Below, piece after piece: positions 4,309 to 51,178 of a stretch of 64,000 bases of DNA. The translations under genes were made by a program, and so were the position numbers. The stretch comes from an uncultured archaeon (GTDB lineage Archaea > Micrarchaeota > Micrarchaeia > Micrarchaeales > CABMGC01): contig CAVWAD010000002.1 of the NCBI GenBank assembly GCA_963752955.1, positions 8,573 through 72,572 of the forward strand. Reading direction: 5' to 3'. The notes under the pieces were generated by a model, which saw only the letters and a program-made list of their open reading frames with translations, was not told the origin of the DNA and made no database searches. How positions within the stretch are numbered: the first letter of the stretch is position 1; the number at the start of each line of letters is the position of its first letter.

Positions 4309-5181
4309 TCATCTTATTCCGTCCGCCCAATTTAGGGTAATGCGAGCCAGCTCTTTTTCCTTTCTGTGGAAAGAGTGGTCCGCGCCCGCTATTATCTTCC
4401 ACTCGAAGTCTGCGGACACCGTCTTGGACTCTAATATGCTCATATATTTTCTTACTGGTTTAGTTCTATGTTCTTCCTTGCTACCGAATACGGCGAGAAT
4501 AGGCTGCCTTATTCGCCCGAATTCCTCCAGATCTGAGTCATAATTGAATAATCTGGCCTCTACATTTCTAGGTTCCGCGTAACTCAGGAACCTCCTCGCT
4601 GTGTAATAGTATATCCCCCCTGAAGCCAACTCATCGCCCCTGCCGCGCCTGACCATGTCCTTCGCTATCCTCACTGCAAGCGGGAACCTGTCTTTGAGTT
4701 CCTGCCTGGCGACATTATAATCGTCTACCGGCGCGAGGAGTATTACGCCTCTGACCTTTCGATCCTTTCTTTTCGAACAGTAATAGGTTACTTTTTGGCA
4801 GCCCGTGCTTTGACCTTGGAGAATTATGCTCCTATAGCCCAGCCTCGAGAGGAATCTTATCGCCCCTTCGATGTCGAACAGGCAGTCTTCGAATTTCTCC
4901 CTTGCCGTGCCTATGTACCTTCTGTCTTTTCCGGTCGTGTGAAAACTGTTTACCGATCCCATGCCCCTGTTGTTTGCCAGGAATATGTCCACGTTGCCGC
5001 CCTTGGCCACGGAATATAGCGCCCTGTACCGCTCAGAGGAAAAGAAGTTGGAGGTCATCCCGAAGACGTTCAGTATGACCTTTCTGTTTCGGCTCCTGGA
5101 CCTCAGCAGGAATCCGTCCAGCCTCAGGCCGTCCTTCGTCGTGAACTTGACCAGCTCTCCGTACATGCGGCTATCGGCCAT
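4309..5181 (-). CDS. alpha/beta-fold hydrolase
   Basis: The 290-aa protein has a GQSTG nucleophile elbow (GxSxG) and a later D...H pattern (AGADHSF). Confidence 0.6.
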   Translation of the reverse strand: MADSRMYGELVKFTTKDGLRLDGFLLRSRSRNRKVILNVFGMTSNFFSSERYRALYSVAKGGNVDIFLANNRGMGSVNSFHTTGKDRRYIGTAREKFEDCLFDIEGAIRFLSRLGYRSIILQGQSTGCQKVTYYCSKRKDRKVRGVILLAPVDDYNVARQELKDRFPLAVRIAKDMVRRGRGDELASGGIYYYTARRFLSYAEPRNVEARLFNYDSDLEEFGRIRQPILAVFGSKEEHRTKPVRKYMSILESKTVSADFEWKIIAGADHSFHRKEKELARITLNWADGIR

Positions 5182-5657: not shown

Positions 5658-7112
5658 TCAGAGCACGAAGACGAAGTTCCTGAACTGCCACACGTCGCTC
5701 GAGTCCGCCATGCTCAGCGGGTTCTCCTTGAAAAAGACCTTCCTGTTCTTCAGCGGCGTCCAGTCGCTCTGCATCGAGACCAGCTTGCCGAGGTACGGCT
5801 TGGCTATCTTCAGTATGAACTCGTGCGGCAGGTCGTCCGGCAGGCATACCCCCCTCCTCGGGTTCTCGAGCGCCCACAGCAGGGCCGAGACGACGCCTAT
5901 CGCGACCTGCAGGGTCGTGGCGTTCTGGTGCGGCACCAGCCTCCGGGTCTCGTTTATGCTGAGCACAGAGCCCGTCCACCAGGAGACGAAGGGGTGGCCC
6001 ATTATGAGCGCGCCGAGGATGTCCTCGCCCTTCTTGATGTCGTCGGACATTATCCTGAGCTTGGGCTGCATCTCGTAGTTCCTGGCCCTGAGCTCCCATA
6101 GCGACGAGAGCGTCTCGTGGCACGGCATGTAAGCGTAATGGACCGTGGGCCTGTACACGGCAGCACCGTCCTTCCAGACCGTGAGGTGCTCCGATATGCT
6201 GAACGCCTCGCCGTGCCTTATCACCATCCCCAGTATCTCCTGCCCGGGTATCCACGACCTCACCCAGGTGTTCATGCCCATCTGAGAGAGGAAGATCTGG
6301 TTCCTCGGCCCGACCGCCGGGACGTTGGCCAGCTGCGGGAGGTACTTCTCGTGGGTCCCCCATCCCATCTCCGCGGGGGCCACGCCCTCCTCGCGAAGGC
6401 CCTCGATGCTCCACGTGCCGACGAACTCGTTCACCTCCTTCGGCCTGCTCGTTATCTGCGTGTCGCGCTCCGAGCAGTGTATGACCTTGACCTCGAGCTC
6501 CATGCTTAGCTCCGCGTATCGCTTCCCCGCGATCAGCTCCTTTAGGAGCTCCGCCCTCTTCTGGGGGATCTTCTTGTCCCTGATCAGCTTCTCGGATATG
6601 TCGATGAGGCCCTTCTTGACGAAGTGCGATATGAGGCCGGGGTTCGCGCCGTGCTCCAGCACCGCGGTCGGGGCGCCCTCCCAGTCCTTTGTCAGGTCCC
6701 TTATCTGCATGTACCTGTGGTACAGCGATTTCTCATAGGGGGTCTTCTCCGTCATCCCCTTCTTGGGATCCCACTGCTCCACCGAGGTGTTGACGTAGAG
6801 GATCTCGTTGTCGTGGCACCACTTGAGAAGCTCGCAGCAGTCTATGTTCCACGCCAGGTCGATGAGCAGGTCACCGGGGGCCAGGTGCTTCGCCAGCATG
6901 CTCGGCAGGTTCTCCTGGGTTATCTTGCACCTCACGAAGGTCACCCCTTTCCTGATCCAGGGCGCCAGCTCCTTCGCCTTGTCCTCGAAATCTATCACCG
7001 TGATGTTCTTGAGGGGGACGTCGACGTGCGCCAGAAGCACGGGAAGCGTGCATCGCGCGACCGCGCCGTAGCCCAGCATCAGGATTCTGTTCTCGAAAAT
7101 CGCCTTTTTCAT
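5658..7112 (-). CDS. hss: homospermidine synthase (bacterial type, saccharopine-dehydrogenase-like)
   Basis: The 484-aa protein appears colinear with bacterial HSS as I remember it: the LGYGAVARCTLPVL Rossmann start, GANPGLISHFVK, ERDTQ, TWSIEG, YRPTVHYAY, NATTLQV and a C-terminal DVWQFRN. Confidence 0.8.
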   Translation of the reverse strand: MKKAIFENRILMLGYGAVARCTLPVLLAHVDVPLKNITVIDFEDKAKELAPWIRKGVTFVRCKITQENLPSMLAKHLAPGDLLIDLAWNIDCCELLKWCHDNEILYVNTSVEQWDPKKGMTEKTPYEKSLYHRYMQIRDLTKDWEGAPTAVLEHGANPGLISHFVKKGLIDISEKLIRDKKIPQKRAELLKELIAGKRYAELSMELEVKVIHCSERDTQITSRPKEVNEFVGTWSIEGLREEGVAPAEMGWGTHEKYLPQLANVPAVGPRNQIFLSQMGMNTWVRSWIPGQEILGMVIRHGEAFSISEHLTVWKDGAAVYRPTVHYAYMPCHETLSSLWELRARNYEMQPKLRIMSDDIKKGEDILGALIMGHPFVSWWTGSVLSINETRRLVPHQNATTLQVAIGVVSALLWALENPRRGVCLPDDLPHEFILKIAKPYLGKLVSMQSDWTPLKNRKVFFKENPLSMADSSDVWQFRNFVFVL

Positions 7113-45303: not shown

Positions 45304-45375
45304 CCTGACATTTCAACGGCACGGCAGGGTTCGGAGCCGCGCCCAATCACTACAATAGGGATTGGGAATTTACTA

Positions 45376-45573
45376 CTATGTTCTTTTCAACGACCTTAAC
45401 TCTTGAGAAAGCGCAGCACAATTGTAACAGGCAAAGGCACCGGCACCAAATAGGAAAGCGTTCCCAAGGTGACCTGAAAATAATTCTCCAAATGCACTCG
45501 CGCCCCAGGAGACAGTAGCCAGTTTCCACATCGTTGGGGAATGCCTAAACCATGTTTCTGCCACCTTTACCAC
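45376..45573 (-). CDS. hypothetical small membrane protein (65 aa)
   Basis: This is a short ORF with one or two hydrophobic segments. Support is weak. Confidence 0.3.
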   Translation of the reverse strand: MVKVAETWFRHSPTMWKLATVSWGASAFGELFSGHLGNAFLFGAGAFACYNCAALSQELRSLKRT

Positions 45574-45668
45574 CGTATATATTATGGCTAACCAAGTATA
45601 TCGCAGTTAGTGCCTAATTTTAGTCCGAAAAGGTAATATTTATATATTTTAAGTTAATAAATGTCAAA

Positions 45669-46704: not shown

Positions 46705-46967
46705 CTATTTGTACGCGCCGCCACGCCATTCTATGTCGGATACCTCTATCTGCTCGAGGTTCCAGACGACATTGTAAAGTACGCGTATGCCTCTATCCTT
46801 ATCCTGTAGGTGTCGTCCATGCCCTGAAGCTTCTTCACATCGTACAGGCCCGCGGGCACGGCGTCATTCTTGAGCGTCTCAATAAGTTCTTCCGCCCGCT
46901 TCCGGTAATGAATCGGCATCCCTTCCGCCGATTTCTGCGCCCTTTTGGCGACCTTCACCAGGAACAA
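46705..46967 (-). pseudogene. relE: RelE-family toxin with a frameshift
   Basis: Frame A reads ..KKLQGMDDTYRIRIE and then runs into a stop at 46746. The conserved continuation GIRVLYNVVWNLEQIEVSDIEWRGGAYK* is in another frame, ending at 46705. The shift is near 46788-46794. Confidence 0.7.
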
Positions 46968-46971
46968 TAAA

Positions 46972-47172
46972 TCAGCCCGTGCTCTTGAAGAGCCTCTCCG
47001 CAGCCACCCATTCGCCGCGCGCCATCTCCTTCTTGGCCTCCTCTATGGCCTTCAGCTCCCTCTTCGTGGGCTTCGCGGTAGGCAGCAGCATCGCCCTGAG
47101 CCTCATCAACTCGATCTCCACCGAGCCGAGCCTGCCCATCACTTCCTTCATCTCAGTCTGCGTAATCGCCAT
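46972..47172 (-). CDS. antitoxin partner of the decayed relE (66 aa from MAITQ)
   Basis: It lies directly upstream of the toxin, 4 nt away. It has a coiled-coil segment and a KAIEEAKKEMARGE segment. Confidence 0.5.
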   Translation of the reverse strand: MAITQTEMKEVMGRLGSVEIELMRLRAMLLPTAKPTKRELKAIEEAKKEMARGEWVAAERLFKSTG

Positions 47173-47239
47173 GATATTGTTGGGAAAGAGCAAATATTTA
47201 ACATTTGCTTCTTCCTTTGAATCGGAGCGGCGGGCGGCG

Positions 47240-49003
47240 TCAGCTCGCCAGCCTTCCCCCGTTGGGCAGCTCGATCGTGGTGTCGTACTTGTAGCCGATG
47301 CCCAGCTTGACGCACATCTCGGCCTTCGCGAGCTCGGCGCCTATGAACACCGCGTGATCGATCCTCGATATTATGTCGAAGTGCTTTATCTTGTAGAGGA
47401 GCTGCCTGGCGGTCTTGCCCTCCAGCTCGAGCAGAATGCCCCCGGTCTCCGGGTTCTGCAGCTTCAGCTTTATAGTGCCGTCGACGACCACGATGTTGAC
47501 GATCCCCCTGGGGTCCAGGTCCTTCTCCGGCTCGAAGTACATGTTTATGGGCGCGTCGTCGACCCTCTCCTTGATCAGACTCTCGACGGTCTGCCAGTCC
47601 TTCTGGTATACGTGCGCGGACTGGCTCTCTATCACGACGAATCCCGGGCGCTTGCCGGATTCCCTCGCCACCCTCCCCAGCAGCCTGGTTATCCCGTAGA
47701 AGTTGAAGAACCATCCCTGGCAGATGTCGTGGGTTCTCACGAACACGTGCAGGTCCACCCTGTCGTTCCTGACCGAGAAAGAGAATTTCAGCAGGCATGG
47801 CCTGCCTGTCTCGAGCTTCGAATGGTACCTGACGTCCCATAGGATGGCCTCCTTGTCCAGTTCGGAGCTCTTCCTCTTTATCCTGTCTATGACGTTCGCT
47901 ATCTGGTCGGTCTTCGGCATAAGGCCCTCCACCAGTATATCCAGTTTTTCCTTTTCGGGAAGGCCCTTTGCCTCCACCGCCGCGATCAGCGCCTCCGTCC
48001 CGCTCTTGTCCCTCTGGGAGTTGAGCTTCACGAACTCCTTTGCGGCATCGTAGCCCTTCCTCTCGAAGAGATCCTTGATCGTCCTGTCGACCTCATGGGG
48101 TCTCGGGAACGCGTGGAGGAGTTCCGTGTACATGTACGAATAGTCCTTCGGCCTCTCGAACTTGCGGACGCCCTCGAAGATCTGGGTGGTGTATGGCTCG
48201 GCGGTGAACTGGGCCTTGTAATAGTTCTCCAGGCTCTCCTTCGTTATGCCGAGCGCCTTCGTCTTCAGCAGCCAATCGGGCAGGTACACGTCGTCGGGGT
48301 TCTCGTTCTCTATGACGACCACCGCATCCCTTATCTCCTTGACGTCAGATTCGCCTTCGTTGATGGGATGCTTGATCCCGTATTTCCATATGCTGTGCAA
48401 CAGCCTCAGATACGCGTCGGCGCCCTTCTTTTCCCTTATGAGATAGGTGTATCTCTCGGAAGGCAGCATGTCGGGGGCCCTGACTACGAACTCGCTGAAC
48501 CTCACGGGCTCCATGTACTTCGCACCGGATTCCAATTGGAGTTCCTGCGCGTCGGGAGTGGCACCCGAGCCTATATCCTTCAGTTCCACGTTCTTCAGTA
48601 TGCTTGCCAGAACCTTCTTGTCGATCTCGTCGACCAGCCTGAACGGCGTGCCGTTTATCTGCCCTCTATCGTCGAAACCGTTGTTCCAGAGACTGACCAG
48701 AGTATTCTTTCCGGCAATACCGATATCGGTGTTGCTGAGCTTGTCCGCCCCCCACACGACCAGGCGCTTTATCTGCGGGTTCATCGCCAGGTTGTAGAGG
48801 ATTATGTTCACCCCGAAAGGCGACCTCAGGTTGCCGATCAGCGCGAAGGCGTCCTTGAAGGAGGGGTTGGCGTCCATCACGCTCTTGACGTCCTGCCACA
48901 CCACGCACAGCGCGGTGCCGCTGCTGGGGTTCCCGACCACGACAGGGAACTCCACGTTCTTGTACAGCTCCAGGCCGTCAACATTGGAAATGTAATCCAT
49001 CAA
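47240..49003 (-). CDS. thymidylate-synthase-like protein with large N- and C-terminal extensions
   Basis: The core motifs GRPCLLKFSF (P-C nucleophile) and VRTHDICQGWFFNFYG correspond to ThyA PCH.. and RS.D..LG.PFN. The protein is 587 aa, versus about 220-320 aa expected for ThyA. Confidence 0.65.
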   Translation of the reverse strand: MMDYISNVDGLELYKNVEFPVVVGNPSSGTALCVVWQDVKSVMDANPSFKDAFALIGNLRSPFGVNIILYNLAMNPQIKRLVVWGADKLSNTDIGIAGKNTLVSLWNNGFDDRGQINGTPFRLVDEIDKKVLASILKNVELKDIGSGATPDAQELQLESGAKYMEPVRFSEFVVRAPDMLPSERYTYLIREKKGADAYLRLLHSIWKYGIKHPINEGESDVKEIRDAVVVIENENPDDVYLPDWLLKTKALGITKESLENYYKAQFTAEPYTTQIFEGVRKFERPKDYSYMYTELLHAFPRPHEVDRTIKDLFERKGYDAAKEFVKLNSQRDKSGTEALIAAVEAKGLPEKEKLDILVEGLMPKTDQIANVIDRIKRKSSELDKEAILWDVRYHSKLETGRPCLLKFSFSVRNDRVDLHVFVRTHDICQGWFFNFYGITRLLGRVARESGKRPGFVVIESQSAHVYQKDWQTVESLIKERVDDAPINMYFEPEKDLDPRGIVNIVVVDGTIKLKLQNPETGGILLELEGKTARQLLYKIKHFDIISRIDHAVFIGAELAKAEMCVKLGIGYKYDTTIELPNGGRLAS

Positions 49004-49109
49004 ACCACGCGTTCCGATCAGTAGCTTTGATGCTCATTTATTGAGCTTTTTATCCTTAAATATATGCGCATTATGATGTCTTTGCACCTAAATCGACTTA
49101 AAATGCGAA

Positions 49110-49141
49110 TTTTAGGTGCAACTTTCACCTTTTAGGTGCAA
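49110..49141. repeat. 32-bp subterminal direct repeat, left copy
   Basis: TTTTAGGTGCAACTTTCACCTTTTAGGTGCAA is identical to 50484-50515. It contains two TTAGGTGCAA motifs and the palindrome CACCTTTTAGGTG. Confidence 0.95.
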
Positions 49142-49209
49142 GATTAACTTAGATGCAAAGCCGGACCAAGGTATAGTAAAGGATCATTTAAAAACCCAGC
49201 TATGCTATT

Positions 49210-50307
49210 ATGAACATGGCAGTTATAGGGATAGATACCCTATCCATCGATATAAAAAACTCTCAACGTCAGAATGCAAAAGAATCATCTTTTGCATTTA
49301 GAACCATTCTTGGAGTTGGAGTCGTAGTAAATGATTATGAAAAATTTAGATTGGCGTATTCAGAAGCTATATTAAAAGCGTTCAAAACAATTTCATATAC
49401 TGAAAAAGAAAAGGAAGTTTATTGCAATTACGATTTCAGGAAAATATATGAACTTAGCAATGCCCCCGTACATAACTTGTTTTTCAGGGAAATTTCAAAG
49501 CACATAGATGGGCTATATGTCTTTAACACAACTTTTTCAAAATCAACAAAGATGTTTGCCTATAGTGAGATAAGCGAAGAGCTAGGGCATAAGCTTTCTG
49601 AAGACGCATTTGATTTTGATAAGGCAATAAATAAGATAACTGCTTACTTTCCTCTGATTGGAGTATGGTGTGATAGGGACTATCTGCGCGATGAAGTCTC
49701 ACAGATATATATTGATGGAATTACTCCGATACGTTTCAATGGCTGGAGAAACATCCAGCATCTGCCCCTAGAGATTTTATTCGAAGGAGATAAGTGCAAT
49801 GCTGTAATCGCAACCGCGGATATCATTGCATATCTTATTAGTATGAGATTGCGCCAAAAACGGCTAAAATACGGCGAGGATGGATTCAGGGAAGCACTGC
49901 CAGAGCTAAACGATAGATTACGGTATGTTGCTGTTACTCGAGGATTTTTCAAGTATATAAACCCGGTCAGTAATAAAAACTTGAATATTAACAGTTACCT
50001 AAACCATCCCATAATATTCTTATTCAAAGACGAAGCCAAACAAGTTACAACAGAAGTAATTCGTGCATTACCTGGATTCGACTCTGTTTATAATTTTGCT
50101 TTTAGGAAAAATGGGTCTGTTAAATTCTTCGACAAACAAAACGACCAAGGTAAAATCAGAGAGGGCGACTATATAGTTTATTTTTCTGAAGATGGTAAAA
50201 GAGAACTAAGTACAATTAAAGGAGTTATGGGAGAGAACATAAACCTTCTAAGCTTTGACCAAGTGCGCAAAGAAGGTGTTTATAAACATGCCAAACCGCA
50301 AGGATAA
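49210..50307 (+). CDS. uncharacterised 365-aa protein (possible RNase-H-like/DUF3800-like fold)
   Basis: This is an intact AT-rich ORF. The only motif-level hints are the N-terminal VIGIDT and a later NAVIATADIIAYLIS. No confident family assignment was made. Confidence 0.6.
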   Translation: MNMAVIGIDTLSIDIKNSQRQNAKESSFAFRTILGVGVVVNDYEKFRLAYSEAILKAFKTISYTEKEKEVYCNYDFRKIYELSNAPVHNLFFREISKHIDGLYVFNTTFSKSTKMFAYSEISEELGHKLSEDAFDFDKAINKITAYFPLIGVWCDRDYLRDEVSQIYIDGITPIRFNGWRNIQHLPLEILFEGDKCNAVIATADIIAYLISMRLRQKRLKYGEDGFREALPELNDRLRYVAVTRGFFKYINPVSNKNLNINSYLNHPIIFLFKDEAKQVTTEVIRALPGFDSVYNFAFRKNGSVKFFDKQNDQGKIREGDYIVYFSEDGKRELSTIKGVMGENINLLSFDQVRKEGVYKHAKPQG

Positions 50308-50483
50308 TCTTATATAGCCAGACGTTCTGTAAATAATTACGCCATGCACTATACCAGGGGCATGTCTACCTTGCATAGATATGTATGTGGGGCAACGTTC
50401 GCGTTGCCTCACCAGTAAAGTCTCTCTAGTTCGGCGGATTACTAAAAAGCCATTTAAGTACGCTATTTCTTATAGGAGTTCCT

Positions 50484-50515
50484 TTTTAGGTGCAACTTTC
50501 ACCTTTTAGGTGCAA
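50484..50515. repeat. 32-bp subterminal direct repeat, right copy
   Basis: This copy is identical to 49110-49141. Confidence 0.95.
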
Positions 50516-50620
50516 AATCGACTTTAAGTGCAAAGCCCATTATGATATCCACTCCAGAGAGTCGCCACATTACAGAAAGGGATATAAATTCGGGATCAGA
50601 TATTTAACCGTGGCGTTAGG

Positions 50621-51178
50621 ATGATACTTTCAGATAGGGACATAAGAGCGAACATTAATAGCGGCAAGATAAAGGTGGAGCCTTGCGACCTTGAGACGCA
50701 GCTCTCGTCCGTAGGCATAGACCTCAGGCTGGGGAACGAGTTCAGGCTGTTCAAGGTAACGCACAAGTCCCACGTGGACCTCTCGAAGGTCAACACGCAG
50801 ATCGACACGGAGCTCGTTGAGGTGCCGGACGGCGAGACGTTCATGCTGCACCCGGGGGAGTTCGTGCTGGGCATAACGAAGGAGACCGTCGAGCTGCCGG
50901 ACGACATCGCGGCGCGCATAGACGGCAGGTCGAGCCTGGGCAGGCTCGGCATCATCGTCCACTCCACTGCGGGGCACGTGGACCCCGGCTGGAGGGGCAA
51001 GCTCACGCTCGAGATAAGCAACATAGGGAAGCTCCCCATCGCGATAATACCCGGGATGAGGTTCTGCTCCCTGATGTTCGAGAGCCTCAGCTCCCCGGTG
51101 GAGAAGAAGTACAAGGGCAAGTACCTCGACTCCTCGACCCCGCTGTCGTCCAAGATAAACGAGGAGTTCAAGAGATAG
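50621..51178 (+). CDS. dcd: dCTP deaminase (possibly bifunctional dCTP deaminase/dUTPase)
   Basis: MILSDRDI, GIDLRLG, ARIDGRSSLGRLGI and VDPGWRGKLTLEI motifs are present. Confidence 0.9.
   Translation: MILSDRDIRANINSGKIKVEPCDLETQLSSVGIDLRLGNEFRLFKVTHKSHVDLSKVNTQIDTELVEVPDGETFMLHPGEFVLGITKETVELPDDIAARIDGRSSLGRLGIIVHSTAGHVDPGWRGKLTLEISNIGKLPIAIIPGMRFCSLMFESLSSPVEKKYKGKYLDSSTPLSSKINEEFKR

What the first reader, a model, noticed from the sequence alone, without database searches (positions are those of the whole stretch)
49069..50549. AT-rich 1.45-kb single-gene insert with imperfect TIRs, 32-bp subterminal direct repeats and a 12-bp flanking repeat, encoding an unrecognised 365-aa protein
A block of markedly lower G+C sits between the divergent ThyA-like gene and dcd. 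A hand count gives about 18/60 G+C in a line inside the ORF, versus more than 60% in the flanking genes. Its ends are TTTGCACCTAAATCGACTT on the left and TTTGCACTTAAAGTCGATT on the right (reverse complement). The 12-mers CATTATGATGTC and CATTATGATATC flank it directly, like a target duplication or att core. Just inside each end lies an identical 32-mer, TTTTAGGTGCAACTTTCACCTTTTAGGTGCAA. Further T(T)AGGTGCAA-like iterons occur at 49081-49090 (inverted), 49150-49160 and 50524-50535. The palindrome CACCTTTTAGGTG sits inside the 32-mer. The single ORF (49210-50307) matches no family I recognise. Its only hints of an RNase-H-like or DUF3800-like enzyme are VIGIDT and NAVIATADIIAYLIS. A GGCAACG-TTCG-CGTTGCC hairpin follows the gene near 50393-50410. 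Together this looks like a recently acquired mobile or selfish unit of an undescribed type.
Basis: partly seen in the sequence, partly recalled or inferred. Interest (0 to 1): 0.8.

Follow-up and report, generated by a model that had tools for sequence, protein, structure and literature searches.

The report
Acquired archaeal cassette: DUF8203 nuclease plus sRNA

Summary
G+C is 0.37, against 0.56-0.60 in the flanks. A sister archaeal MAG keeps the thyA-like and dcd genes adjacent, with 41 nt where the window has 1,497 nt, so this is a lineage-specific gain.

The ORF belongs to Pfam DUF8203. That is a rare family seen so far only in archaeal-looking contexts, with 327 cluster representatives among 1.84 billion proteins. 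Three lines of evidence suggest an RNase HII-like core: secondary-structure order, three invariant Asp residues colinear with the RNase HII catalytic residues, and Foldseek hits from a shallow model. The confident AF2 model matched nothing, so this assignment stays tentative.

The "terminator hairpin" is the 3' half of a roughly 75-nt sRNA gene with a fixed-distance TATA box. Its 5' hairpin is conserved and covaries. It sits beside the gene in 8 lineages, downstream, upstream or antisense. Four more distant subfamilies carry their own conserved downstream hairpins.

The gene-plus-sRNA unit (1.2-1.5 kb) sits in unrelated contexts, four times between direct repeats, two of which include tRNA 3' ends. 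The TIRs and iterons are private to the window copy.

My best reading is a mobile, RNA-partnered nuclease module with a defence or addiction role, an archaeal analogue of DUF3800-ncRNA pairs. How it moves and what it does remain unproven.

The parts
49069..49080 (.). Left 12-bp direct repeat, CATTATGATGTC. It is contiguous with the ancestral intergenic sequence on its left.
   Evidence: BLAST homology to L012 ends at 49074
49080..49099 (.). Left terminal inverted repeat, CTTTGCACCTAAATCGACTT. It contains one inverted iteron (49082-49091, minus strand).
49110..49162 (+). Left iteron block: TTTTAGGTGCAA twice at 20-nt spacing plus TTAGATGCAAAGCC. It is a direct repeat of the right block.
49186..49195 (+). 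CATTTAAAAA, a TATA-like box about 20 nt before the ATG at 49216. This is an inferred promoter of a leaderless DUF8203 mRNA.
   Evidence: Read; an inference from general knowledge of archaeal promoters, not tested.
49210..50307 (+). DUF8203 (PF26630) protein gene, 365 aa (363 aa from ATG 49216). Residues conserved across the family: D9, S/T10, Y50, W153, D169, G193-D194, N197, D204, P267, K305, D312, D320.
50310..50317 (+). TTATATAG, the TATA box of the sRNA gene. All 8 lineages have such a box 15-16 nt upstream of the start of the covariance-model match.
50340..50414 (+). Small structured RNA gene of about 75 nt. The 5' hairpin is at 50341-50366 (7 + 2 bp, loop AUACCA). A conserved linker follows.
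   Evidence: no Rfam match
50484..50537 (+). Right iteron block, a direct repeat of 49110-49162.
50516..50535 (.). Right terminal inverted repeat, AAATCGACTTTAAGTGCAAAG.
50538..50549 (.). Right 12-bp direct repeat, CATTATGATATC. It is contiguous with the ancestral spacer on its right.

Best explanation
Window 49081-50537 is a compact cassette acquired by horizontal transfer from a low-G+C archaeal source. It inserted into the thyA-like/dcd spacer, and 12 bp of the target now flank it on both sides.

Its conserved payload is a two-gene module:
- A DUF8203 protein. I read its N-terminal 220 residues as a divergent RNase HII/H2-like metal-dependent nuclease core. D9, D169 and D194 stand in for the catalytic carboxylates. 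The Glu of the DEDD set is missing, and D204 is also invariant. A C-terminal alpha/beta domain follows.
- A dedicated sRNA of about 75 nt, transcribed from its own TATA promoter.

Inferred mechanism: the protein binds the conserved 5' hairpin of the sRNA, and the resulting RNP acts as an RNA-controlled nuclease. This would be a defence or addiction-type selfish module, the archaeal counterpart of the unexplained bacterial DUF3800-ncRNA pairs and of the DUF3800 effectors of type VII retrons.

The cassette most likely travels as a small circle that integrates by a single crossover at a short shared sequence. That would explain direct repeats of different length and sequence at different loci. 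Recombination would be supplied in trans or by an unknown route. In that picture the seven iterons and the TIR of the window copy form one cluster around the joint of the circular form.

Shown: the insertion, its foreign composition, the family, the conserved structured sRNA gene, and its linkage to the protein on either side and either strand. Inferred: the RNase H-like chemistry, RNP formation, the defence/addiction role and the circular intermediate.
For: Gain of the block:
- Sister MAG L012 (ThyA-like protein 83% identical) is colinear on both sides, with 41 nt in place of 1,497 nt.
- G+C is 0.37 against 0.56-0.60.

Family:
- Pfam label DUF8203.
- 327 cluster representatives at E<=1e-3.
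- No hit in Pfam, NCBIfam, PADLOC, PHROGs, PDB sequences, plasmids, phages or viral contigs.

RNase HII-like reading:
- The shallow AF2 model's top Foldseek hits are RNase H3 4py5 and RNase H2 3puf (probability 0.93-0.97, E about 3e-3), followed by HIV integrases.
- hhalign against RNase HII picks the catalytic region. IDG aligns with LIDG, GDKCNxxISTADIL aligns with GDSRVPEISAASILAK, and at a looser setting GIDT aligns with GVDE. P = 0.03.
- The strand and helix order in the confident model matches what I recall of RNase HII.
- D9, D169, D194 and D204 are present in 65, 66, 61 and 66 of 66 sequences.

sRNA:
- The covariance model finds it next to the gene in 8 lineages. Two of these (L017, L018) were not used to build the model. 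It is never found elsewhere.
- It lies downstream in six, upstream in L002 and antisense in L011.
- 98.6% of cells pair, 6 of 9 pairs show compensatory changes, and 0 of 500 shuffles reach this.
- The G.U pairs fit only the given strand.
- A TATA box sits at a fixed 15-16 nt in all 8.
- The second hairpin changes sequence but keeps its pairing.

Distant subfamilies:
- They have their own conserved downstream hairpins, at 45% protein identity in one pair.

Mobility:
- The unit sits in unrelated contexts.
- Direct repeats flank it: 12 bp in the window, 24-33 bp (tRNA-Pro 3' end) in L002, 11 bp (tRNA 3' end) in L009, and about 22 bp in L011.
- L005 and L002 diverge exactly at the cassette's right edge.

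Context:
- Neighbours include type I R-M with RadC, GmrSD/Schlafen, and tyrosine recombinases.

Literature:
- DUF3800 is RNase H2-like and serves as a retron and Cas12a2 partner (PMC7736814 and PMC10910872).
Against: - The confident AF2 model (pLDDT 94) has no significant Foldseek match in PDB or BFVD, and no RNase H entry appears among its 50 best hits.
- The hhalign probability is only 1.6-1.8%.
- Only 1 of 129 family members touches Pfam DUF3800 (E = 0.047) and 1 touches RNase_HII (E = 0.23).
- The Glu of the DE/DEDD motif is absent.
- No PADLOC model matches, and only some loci show a defence-island context.
- No experiment or transcript data exist for the sRNA.
- No recombinase lies in or near the window cassette, so the means of movement is unknown.
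- The window sRNA has no oligo-T tract after its second hairpin.
Confidence: 0.45

Rival explanations
1. The cassette is a self-mobilising minimal element. DUF8203 would itself be the recombinase or transposase, an RNase-H-fold enzyme comparable to the DDE or IS110 DEDD enzymes. The sRNA would be its cofactor. The TIR and iteron ends would be its binding sites, and the 12-bp repeat would be its target duplication or att core.
For: - DUF8203 plus the sRNA is the only content shared by four repeat-bounded units of 1.3-2.3 kb, in the window, L002, L009 and L011.
- None of these units contains a known integrase.
- The window copy has a TIR and subterminal repeats.
- The L005/L002 breakpoint lies at the cassette edge.
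- The protein has invariant acidic residues, and D169 to D204 is 35 residues, a DD35E-like spacing.
- An ncRNA sits next to a single ORF, as in IS110 and IS1111.
Against: - The ends are not conserved between copies, and TIRs and iterons are seen only in the window.
- The repeats vary from 11 to 33 bp and are imperfect, unlike a fixed target-site duplication.
- There is one copy per contig, and P0003 sits in the same context in 6 samples.
- No transposase or integrase profile hits the protein.
- The sRNA loop is conserved while the targets differ, and duplex energies between the sRNA and the junctions are not better than shuffles.
- Tyrosine recombinases sit next to the gene in L008 and L029, so help in trans is available in some genomes.
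Confidence: 0.2
2. The block is an integrated miniature plasmid replicon. The iteron cluster would be the origin. The sRNA would be a primer or copy-control RNA. DUF8203 would be an RNase-H-like primer-processing or initiator protein, in the manner of ColE1. Integration would have happened by a single crossover at a chance 12-bp homology.
For: - Seven iterons at roughly 20-nt spacing would form one cluster of about 190 bp in a circularised form.
- The size (1.3-1.8 kb) and the AT-richness fit a small plasmid.
- Variable, imperfect flanking repeats are what Campbell-type integration gives.
- The pairing of an RNase-H-like enzyme with a small RNA recalls ColE1 RNA II and RNase H. This is my own knowledge, not a tool result.
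Against: - tblastn finds nothing in 72,556 plasmid records or in phage records.
- No contig looks like a free circle.
- Iterons are absent from the other copies.
- No known Rep domain is present.
- The distant subfamilies sit in ordinary chromosomal neighbourhoods.
Confidence: 0.1
3. The block is an ordinary resident gene with a chance composition dip and chance repeats, and no mobile or selfish unit is involved.
For: The window and its 119-kb contig hold a single copy, and no recombinase is encoded nearby.
Against: - A sister MAG has an empty site.
- G+C drops by about 20 points.
- The iteron excess is reached by 0 of 100 shuffles.
- The homologues lie in unrelated contexts.
Confidence: 0.02

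Closest known systems
DUF3800 (PF12686) proteins with their associated structured RNAs: the DUF3800-I to -XI, drum and skipping-rope motifs (Weinberg et al. 2017, PMC5737381)
   Same: An uncharacterised protein of about 250-350 aa is linked to a small, conserved, structured RNA. The RNA is encoded nearby on either side and in either orientation and is often followed by a terminator. Different protein subfamilies carry different RNA motifs. The function is unknown. DUF3800 has been modelled as RNase H2-like with a rearranged active site, which is the same lead obtained here.
   Different: DUF8203 is not detected by the DUF3800 profile (1 borderline hit among 129 members). It has D-S/T instead of the N-terminal DE motif. 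The sRNA matches none of the Rfam 15 families, which include the DUF3800 motifs. The family looks archaeal, and here it can be seen as a discrete inserted cassette.
RNase HII / RNase H2 (PF01351; for example 1io2, 3puf)
   Same: The order of strands and helices is the same. Three invariant Asp residues are colinear with catalytic D16, D108 and D126 of E. coli RNase HII. The motif GD..xP.IS.A.IL is shared.
   Different: There is no significant sequence or Foldseek match with the confident model. The catalytic Glu is missing. About 100 residues of helical insertions are present. A C-terminal domain of about 130 aa is added.
IS110/IS1111 elements with a bridge RNA
   Same: A single ORF with a possible RNase-H-fold enzyme lies next to a structured ncRNA inside a small element. 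Copy number is low, and some insertions are at specific sites such as tRNA 3' ends.
   Different: There is no DEDD_Tnp_IS110 or Transposase_20 match. The RNA is short (about 75 nt), and its loop is conserved across elements whose targets differ. It shows no complementarity to the junctions. The ends are not conserved.
Type VII retrons (RT + msr/msd + DUF3800 effector; Mestre et al. 2020, PMC7736814)
   Same: An RNase H2-like effector is paired with a dedicated non-coding nucleic acid, in a defence context.
   Different: No reverse transcriptase is present in or near any DUF8203 locus examined.
Archaeal tRNA-targeting integrative elements with tyrosine integrases (SSV-type and pNOB8-type)
   Same: Direct repeats that include the 3' end of a tRNA gene bound the unit in L002 and L009. 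L011 abuts a tRNA 3' end. Tyrosine recombinase genes lie next to the cassette in L008 and L029.
   Different: The window target is an intergenic 12-mer, not a tRNA. No integrase lies inside any of the repeat-bounded units.
Type III toxin-antitoxin systems (ToxIN-like)
   Same: A protein nuclease is paired with a dedicated small RNA as a compact selfish or abortive-infection module.
   Different: The RNA here is a single-copy gene with its own promoter, not a tandem repeat array processed by the toxin. There is no sequence similarity, and no toxicity data exist.

Membership tests
Pfam DUF8203 (PF26630) | Match to the family profile over the full length | tested here: met
   The window protein and all close homologues carry the precomputed label PF26630. 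A profile of 5 members retrieves 327 full-length representatives of about 340-350 aa. My local Pfam copy lacks this model.
RNase HII/H2-like nucleases | Significant sequence or structure similarity to RNase HII | tested here: inconclusive
   The shallow model hits 4py5 and 3puf (E about 3e-3). The confident model gives no hit. hhalign gives P = 0.03 and probability below 2%. Pfam RNase_HII gives 1 of 129 members at E = 0.23.
RNase HII/H2-like nucleases | The four catalytic carboxylates D-E-D-D | tested here: not met
   D9, D169 and D194 align with the three Asp residues and are nearly invariant. The position of the Glu holds S, T, A or G in 63 of 66 sequences and never Glu among the commonest residues.
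DUF3800 protein + DUF3800 RNA motif pairs | Protein matches PF12686, with an N-terminal DE motif | tested here: not met
   Only 1 of 129 members hits at E = 0.047. The motif is D-S/T.
DUF3800 protein + DUF3800 RNA motif pairs | A conserved structured ncRNA encoded next to the gene, on either side and either strand | tested here: met
   The sRNA is found next to the gene in 8 lineages: downstream in six, upstream in L002 and antisense in L011. Distant subfamilies have other conserved hairpins.
DUF3800 protein + DUF3800 RNA motif pairs | The RNA belongs to one of the described motifs (Rfam) | tested here: not met
   There is no Rfam 15 match at E<=5-10 to any DUF3800, drum or skipping-rope family.
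Insertion sequence / autonomous transposon | Terminal inverted repeats conserved among copies, plus a fixed-length target duplication | tested here: not met
   The window has a TIR and a 12-bp repeat. No other copy shares these ends. The repeats elsewhere are 11, about 22 and 24-33 bp.
Insertion sequence / autonomous transposon | Recognisable transposase, and multiple copies per genome | tested here: not met
   No transposase profile hits the protein. There is one copy in the 64-kb window and one on the 119-kb contig. Whole genomes were not available.
IS110-type bridge-RNA element | ncRNA loops complementary to the target and donor junctions | tested here: not met
   z-scores of sRNA-junction duplex energies range from -0.8 to +1.9. 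The loop sequence is conserved across elements with different targets.
tRNA-integrating element with tyrosine integrase | att repeats derived from a tRNA 3' end | tested here: not met
   This holds for L002 (tRNA-Pro, 24-33 nt) and L009 (11 nt). It does not hold for the window copy, whose repeat is an intergenic 12-mer.
tRNA-integrating element with tyrosine integrase | Integrase gene inside the element | tested here: not met
   There is none in the window element or within 10 kb of it. Phage_integrase genes lie next to the cassette, not within it, in L008 and L029.
Iteron-type plasmid replicon | Iterons plus a known Rep protein, and occurrence as a plasmid | tested here: not met
   Iterons are present in the window only. 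No Rep domain is found. No match exists in PLSDB.
Integron gene cassette | An attC site with the R''/R' consensus (RYYYAAC / GTTRRRY) next to intI | tested here: not met
   By inspection the hairpins lack the R-box consensus. The hairpin has its own TATA box and G.U pairs, which indicate an RNA.

The most novel reading that the evidence does not exclude
DUF8203 plus its sRNA is a complete, self-mobilising archaeal element of a new class. An RNase-H-fold enzyme, working with a dedicated small RNA, would excise the 1.3-1.8-kb unit as a circle and integrate it at short sequence matches, including tRNA 3' ends. That would make it the smallest RNA-assisted recombination system known. The bacterial DUF3800-ncRNA pairs might then work in a similar way.
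Probability: 0.15. Interest if true: 0.9.

Novelty: new variant of a known kind. Interest (0 to 1): 0.62.

Why it matters
Pairs of a DUF3800-type protein and a structured RNA have been an open puzzle since 2017. Eleven unrelated RNA motifs are known, and none has a function. This finding adds an archaeal protein family (DUF8203), apparently absent from the literature, with the same signature.

Here the pair is unusually easy to work with. It is a 1.46-kb, two-gene unit with defined borders, an empty-site comparator, a predicted promoter and a confident protein model. That makes direct tests possible:
- Does the protein bind or cut with the RNA?
- Is the pair toxic or protective?
- Does it move by itself?

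If the protein proves to be an RNA-dependent nuclease or recombinase, it would be a new compact RNA-protein tool from archaea.

Tried and rejected
- Known families. Pfam, NCBIfam, PADLOC and PHROGs scans of the window protein and of 129 family members gave nothing consistent. A profile search of PDB sequences gave only antibody noise.
- Structure search. Foldseek with the confident model against PDB and BFVD gave no significant match. The first attempt was lost on the server and had to be repeated.
- Rfam. No family matched the sRNA in the window or in 7 loci.
- Viral origin. There are no DUF8203 relatives in IMG/VR. Five exact hits to the sRNA core pattern in viral contigs were chance matches, since none matched the covariance model. 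There are no tblastn hits in phage or plasmid collections.
- Conserved element ends. Short-word BLAST of the window's non-coding ends against 9 loci found only the sRNA. A k-mer search found iterons only in the window, and weakly in L011 and L017.
- Guide or antisense role for the sRNA. Duplex energies against the junctions and the mRNA 5' region were no better than shuffles, apart from one isolated z of -2.9.
- attC or integron reading. I rejected it by inspection: no R-box consensus, an own promoter, and G.U pairs.
- Archaeal origin (ORB) reading of the iterons. There is only a loose resemblance and no cdc6 gene nearby, so I did not pursue it.
- Retracted guesses. My guesses that window 46746-47193 is a RelE-like pair, and that the L017 upstream ORF is an IS5-type transposase remnant, got no Pfam support.
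- Literature. No paper mentions DUF8203 or PF26630. I found no functional follow-up of the DUF3800 RNA motifs.
Full report
**1.

- The 12-mers CATTATGATGTC (49069-49080) and CATTATGATATC (50538-50549) are the only two matches in the 64-kb window.
- Just inside them lie imperfect inverted ends: 49080-49099 against the reverse complement of 50516-50535.
- An identical 32-mer sits at 49110-49141 and 50484-50515. It is the core of a direct repeat of about 53 nt.
- The decamer TTAGGTGCAA, at up to one mismatch, occurs 8 times in the window. Seven of those are in the element, 1.9 are expected, and none of 100 shuffles reaches 8.
- G+C is 0.37 in the block, against 0.56 and 0.60 in the 5-kb flanks.
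- The flanking genes are a thymidylate-synthase-like fusion protein (MtrA-like + ThyA + pterin-binding DUF4346) and dCTP deaminase.

**2. It is an insertion**

The one relative found in the genome collection is an uncultured archaeal MAG, locus L012. Its ThyA-like protein is 83% identical.

L012 is colinear with the window on both sides. Window 47240-49074 and 50572-51172 align at 84% and 89% nucleotide identity. L012 has 41 nt between those blocks where the window has 1,497 nt.

The left 12-mer continues the homology from the left, and the right 12-mer with its flank continues it to the right. The 12 bp therefore existed once and now flank the insert. Taken with the 20-point G+C drop, this is a lineage-specific gain from a low-G+C donor. 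It is not a conserved housekeeping gene.

**3. The protein**

The ORF most likely starts at ATG 49216, as its homologues do. It carries the precomputed Pfam label DUF8203/PF26630.
- Close relatives are very rare: 5 clusters among 5.8 billion sequences.
- A profile search finds 327 representatives among 1.84 billion proteins. Nearly all are single-domain proteins of about 340-350 aa.
- The contexts look archaeal. Neighbours include tRNA-intron endonuclease, PriX, aIF2-gamma-like and Kae1/Bud32-like genes.
- No curated library recognises the protein or 129 family members. No paper mentions the family.
- Across 66 diverse members the nearly invariant residues are D9, Y50, W153, D169, G193-D194, N197, D204, P267, K305, D312 and D320.

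**4. What fold is it?**

An AF2 model from a 5-sequence alignment had pLDDT 69. Its top Foldseek hits were RNase H3 and RNase H2, at E about 3e-3 and probability 0.93-0.97, followed by HIV integrases.

A model from 66 sequences is confident (pLDDT 94, pTM 0.93). It finds no significant match in PDB or BFVD.

I compared the family profile with RNase HII from E. coli, B. subtilis and T. kodakarensis. The T. kodakarensis sequence was verified against 1io2.
- The best alignment is the catalytic region. '..IDG' aligns with 'LIDG' (D169 with D108). 'GDKCNxxISTADIL' aligns with 'GDSRVPEISAASILAK' (D194 with D126).
- At a looser setting, 'GIDT' aligns with 'GVDE' (D9 with D16).
- The P-value is only 0.03.

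The predicted element order is beta1-beta2-alpha-beta3-alpha-beta4-alpha-beta5-alpha. From memory, this is the order in RNase HII.

The Glu of the DEDD set is replaced by Ser or Thr. I rate 'RNase HII-like core with a rearranged active site' at roughly 55-65%. It is a lead, not a result.

**5. The missed partner: a small RNA gene**

A block of about 48 nt, ATTACG-hairpin-CUAC..CGUAUAG, followed by a second hairpin, lies next to the gene in every close lineage.

I built a covariance model from six lineages.
- It finds the unit in two further lineages, L017 and L018. Within the window it matches only at 50333-50380. It matches nowhere else in 209 kb of loci.
- The unit is downstream on the same strand in six lineages, upstream in L002, and on the opposite strand in L011.

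The 5' hairpin is well supported. 98.6% of cells pair, 6 of 9 pairs show compensatory changes, and 0 of 500 shuffles reach this. Sliding the partners destroys the pairing. Its G.U pairs would be C.A mismatches on the other strand.

The second hairpin has a different sequence in each lineage but always pairs.

A TATA-like octamer (TTATATAG, TTTTATAT or TTATAAAT) lies 15-16 nt upstream of the model start in all eight lineages, within otherwise unconserved DNA. This predicts a transcript of about 75 nt starting at the base of the first hairpin. Most copies have a T-tract after the second hairpin. The window copy does not.

Rfam 15 has no match.

**6. The pairing extends across the family**

Four more distant subfamilies show no hit to the model. 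Each nevertheless has its own conserved block 10-40 nt after the stop codon:
- L025, L027 and L029;
- L013 and L014;
- L019, L026, L020 and L024;
- L021 and L022.

Three of the blocks contain hairpins with compensatory changes. Several share one layout: an outer stem, single-nucleotide bulges, an inner CC/GG stem, and a 6-8-nt loop. The L013 and L014 proteins are only 45% identical. With 2-4 sequences per group these are indications rather than proof.

**7. Is it mobile, and how?**

The gene-plus-sRNA unit is 1.2-1.5 kb long. It lies in unrelated surroundings:
- between thyA-like and dcd (the window);
- after tRNA-Pro (L002);
- next to other tRNA genes (L009, L011);
- directly after a tyrosine recombinase gene (L008), and beside one (L029);
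- after a tRNA-intron endonuclease gene (L015);
- between two RadC genes beside a type I restriction-modification system (L013);
- beside a GmrSD/Schlafen gene (L021);
- inside a pair of 19-nt inverted repeats (L017).

In close relatives the gene is more AT-rich than its flanks.

Direct repeats bound the unit in four loci:
- 12 bp in the window;
- 24 exact nt (33 with mismatches), equal to the 3' end of tRNA-Pro, in L002;
- 11 nt, equal to a tRNA 3' end, in L009;
- about 22 nt in L011.

In one population, contigs L002 and L005 are identical up to the cassette's right edge (ATTATTGAGCC) and then diverge.

None of these units contains a known recombinase. The ends are not conserved between copies, and the TIR and iterons are peculiar to the window. 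Only one copy per contig is seen.

Repeats of varying length and sequence fit a single crossover between a small circle and a short matching chromosomal site better than they fit a transposase with a fixed stagger. In a circular form, the window's seven iterons and the inverted pair would make one cluster of about 190 bp around the 12-mer. I could not test for circles or for excision.

**8. Closest known system**

Weinberg et al. (PMC5737381) reported that DUF3800 genes in bacteria and archaea associate with 11 mutually unrelated structured RNA motifs. They also reported the drum and skipping-rope RNAs, which associate with proteins they considered possibly related to DUF3800. [quoted passage not shown]

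DUF3800 has since been modelled as RNase H2-like with an altered catalytic set. It occurs as the effector of type VII retrons and beside Cas12a2 (PMC7736814 and PMC10910872).

DUF8203 with its sRNA shows the same signature. It fails the DUF3800 membership tests in three ways: the profile does not match, the DE motif is absent, and the RNA is not among the Rfam motifs. So it works like that class, as far as can be seen, but is not a demonstrated member.

An IS110-type bridge-RNA reading is attractive, but two results count against it. The sRNA loop is conserved across different targets, and the sRNA shows no complementarity to the junctions.

**9. Verdict**

Shown:
- a recent horizontal insertion of a compact cassette;
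- a rare archaeal protein family;
- a dedicated, structured, promoter-equipped sRNA gene linked to that family.

Inferred:
- RNase HII-like chemistry;
- formation of an RNP between the protein and the sRNA;
- a defence or addiction role;
- movement through a circular intermediate.

The specific TIR-and-iteron transposon model is not supported as a family trait. The most informative feature, the sRNA, was overlooked.

Noticed in passing
L025:6075-6140, L027:6096-6160, L029:2741-2806; L013:9052-9115, L014:3966-4030; L019:1266-1315, L026:1885-1935, L020:4755-4815, L024:1262-1330; L021:2125-2185, L022:3340-3400: Distant DUF8203 subfamilies each have their own conserved hairpin block just downstream of the stop codon. 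Several share one layout: outer stem, 1-nt bulges, inner CC/GG pairs, 6-8-nt loop. The L024 loop CTACACCAAGGG resembles the window-type loop CTATACCARGGG.
   Followed up: partly
L002:4962-5033 and 5758-5768; L005:4220-5052: Two contigs from one population are identical up to ATTATTGAGCC at the cassette's right edge. L005 then continues with L002 5768..5001 inverted and a second complete tRNA-Pro(cgg) gene. The shared GAGCC suggests a rearrangement with a breakpoint at the cassette end.
   Followed up: partly
L002:3230-3449 and 4987-5024: If the segment between the two tRNA-Pro-derived repeats circularised, a 78-codon ORF would be rebuilt across the joint, with its ATG at 4987. This recalls att sites that lie inside an ORF in SSV-type elements. 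The ORF has no Pfam match.
   Followed up: partly
L017:71-89 and 2117-2135: The DUF8203 + sRNA cassette lies between 19-nt inverted repeats (GCCTTGTTCATAAACTCTG, 95% complementary), together with an upstream ORF of unknown family. It may be a cassette nested in another element.
   Followed up: no
L011:47-65, 133-154, 1441-1462: The block ATTTAAGC-GTGGTGGGTG occurs three times around the cassette. Two of the copies sit about 45 nt upstream of start codons, like duplicated promoter regions, and they bracket the 1.3-kb unit.
   Followed up: partly
window 47240-49003 (-): The 'ThyA-like' gene encodes a 587-aa three-part fusion: an MtrA-like N-terminus, a thymidylate-synthase core and a pterin-binding DUF4346 C-terminus. 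DUF8203 loci L002 (SHMT, ThyX) and L015 (thymidylate kinase) also lie near dTMP-pathway genes, which may be coincidence.
   Followed up: no
window 46746-47193 (-): Two adjacent 73-aa ORFs lie between an AsnC-type regulator gene and the ThyA-like gene. They looked like a toxin-antitoxin pair by eye but have no Pfam match.
   Followed up: partly
window 45350-45650: A second, smaller G+C dip (0.42) lies upstream of the AsnC-like regulator gene. On the matching contig L001, a HicA toxin gene lies further upstream. The neighbourhood may hold other accessory DNA.
   Followed up: no
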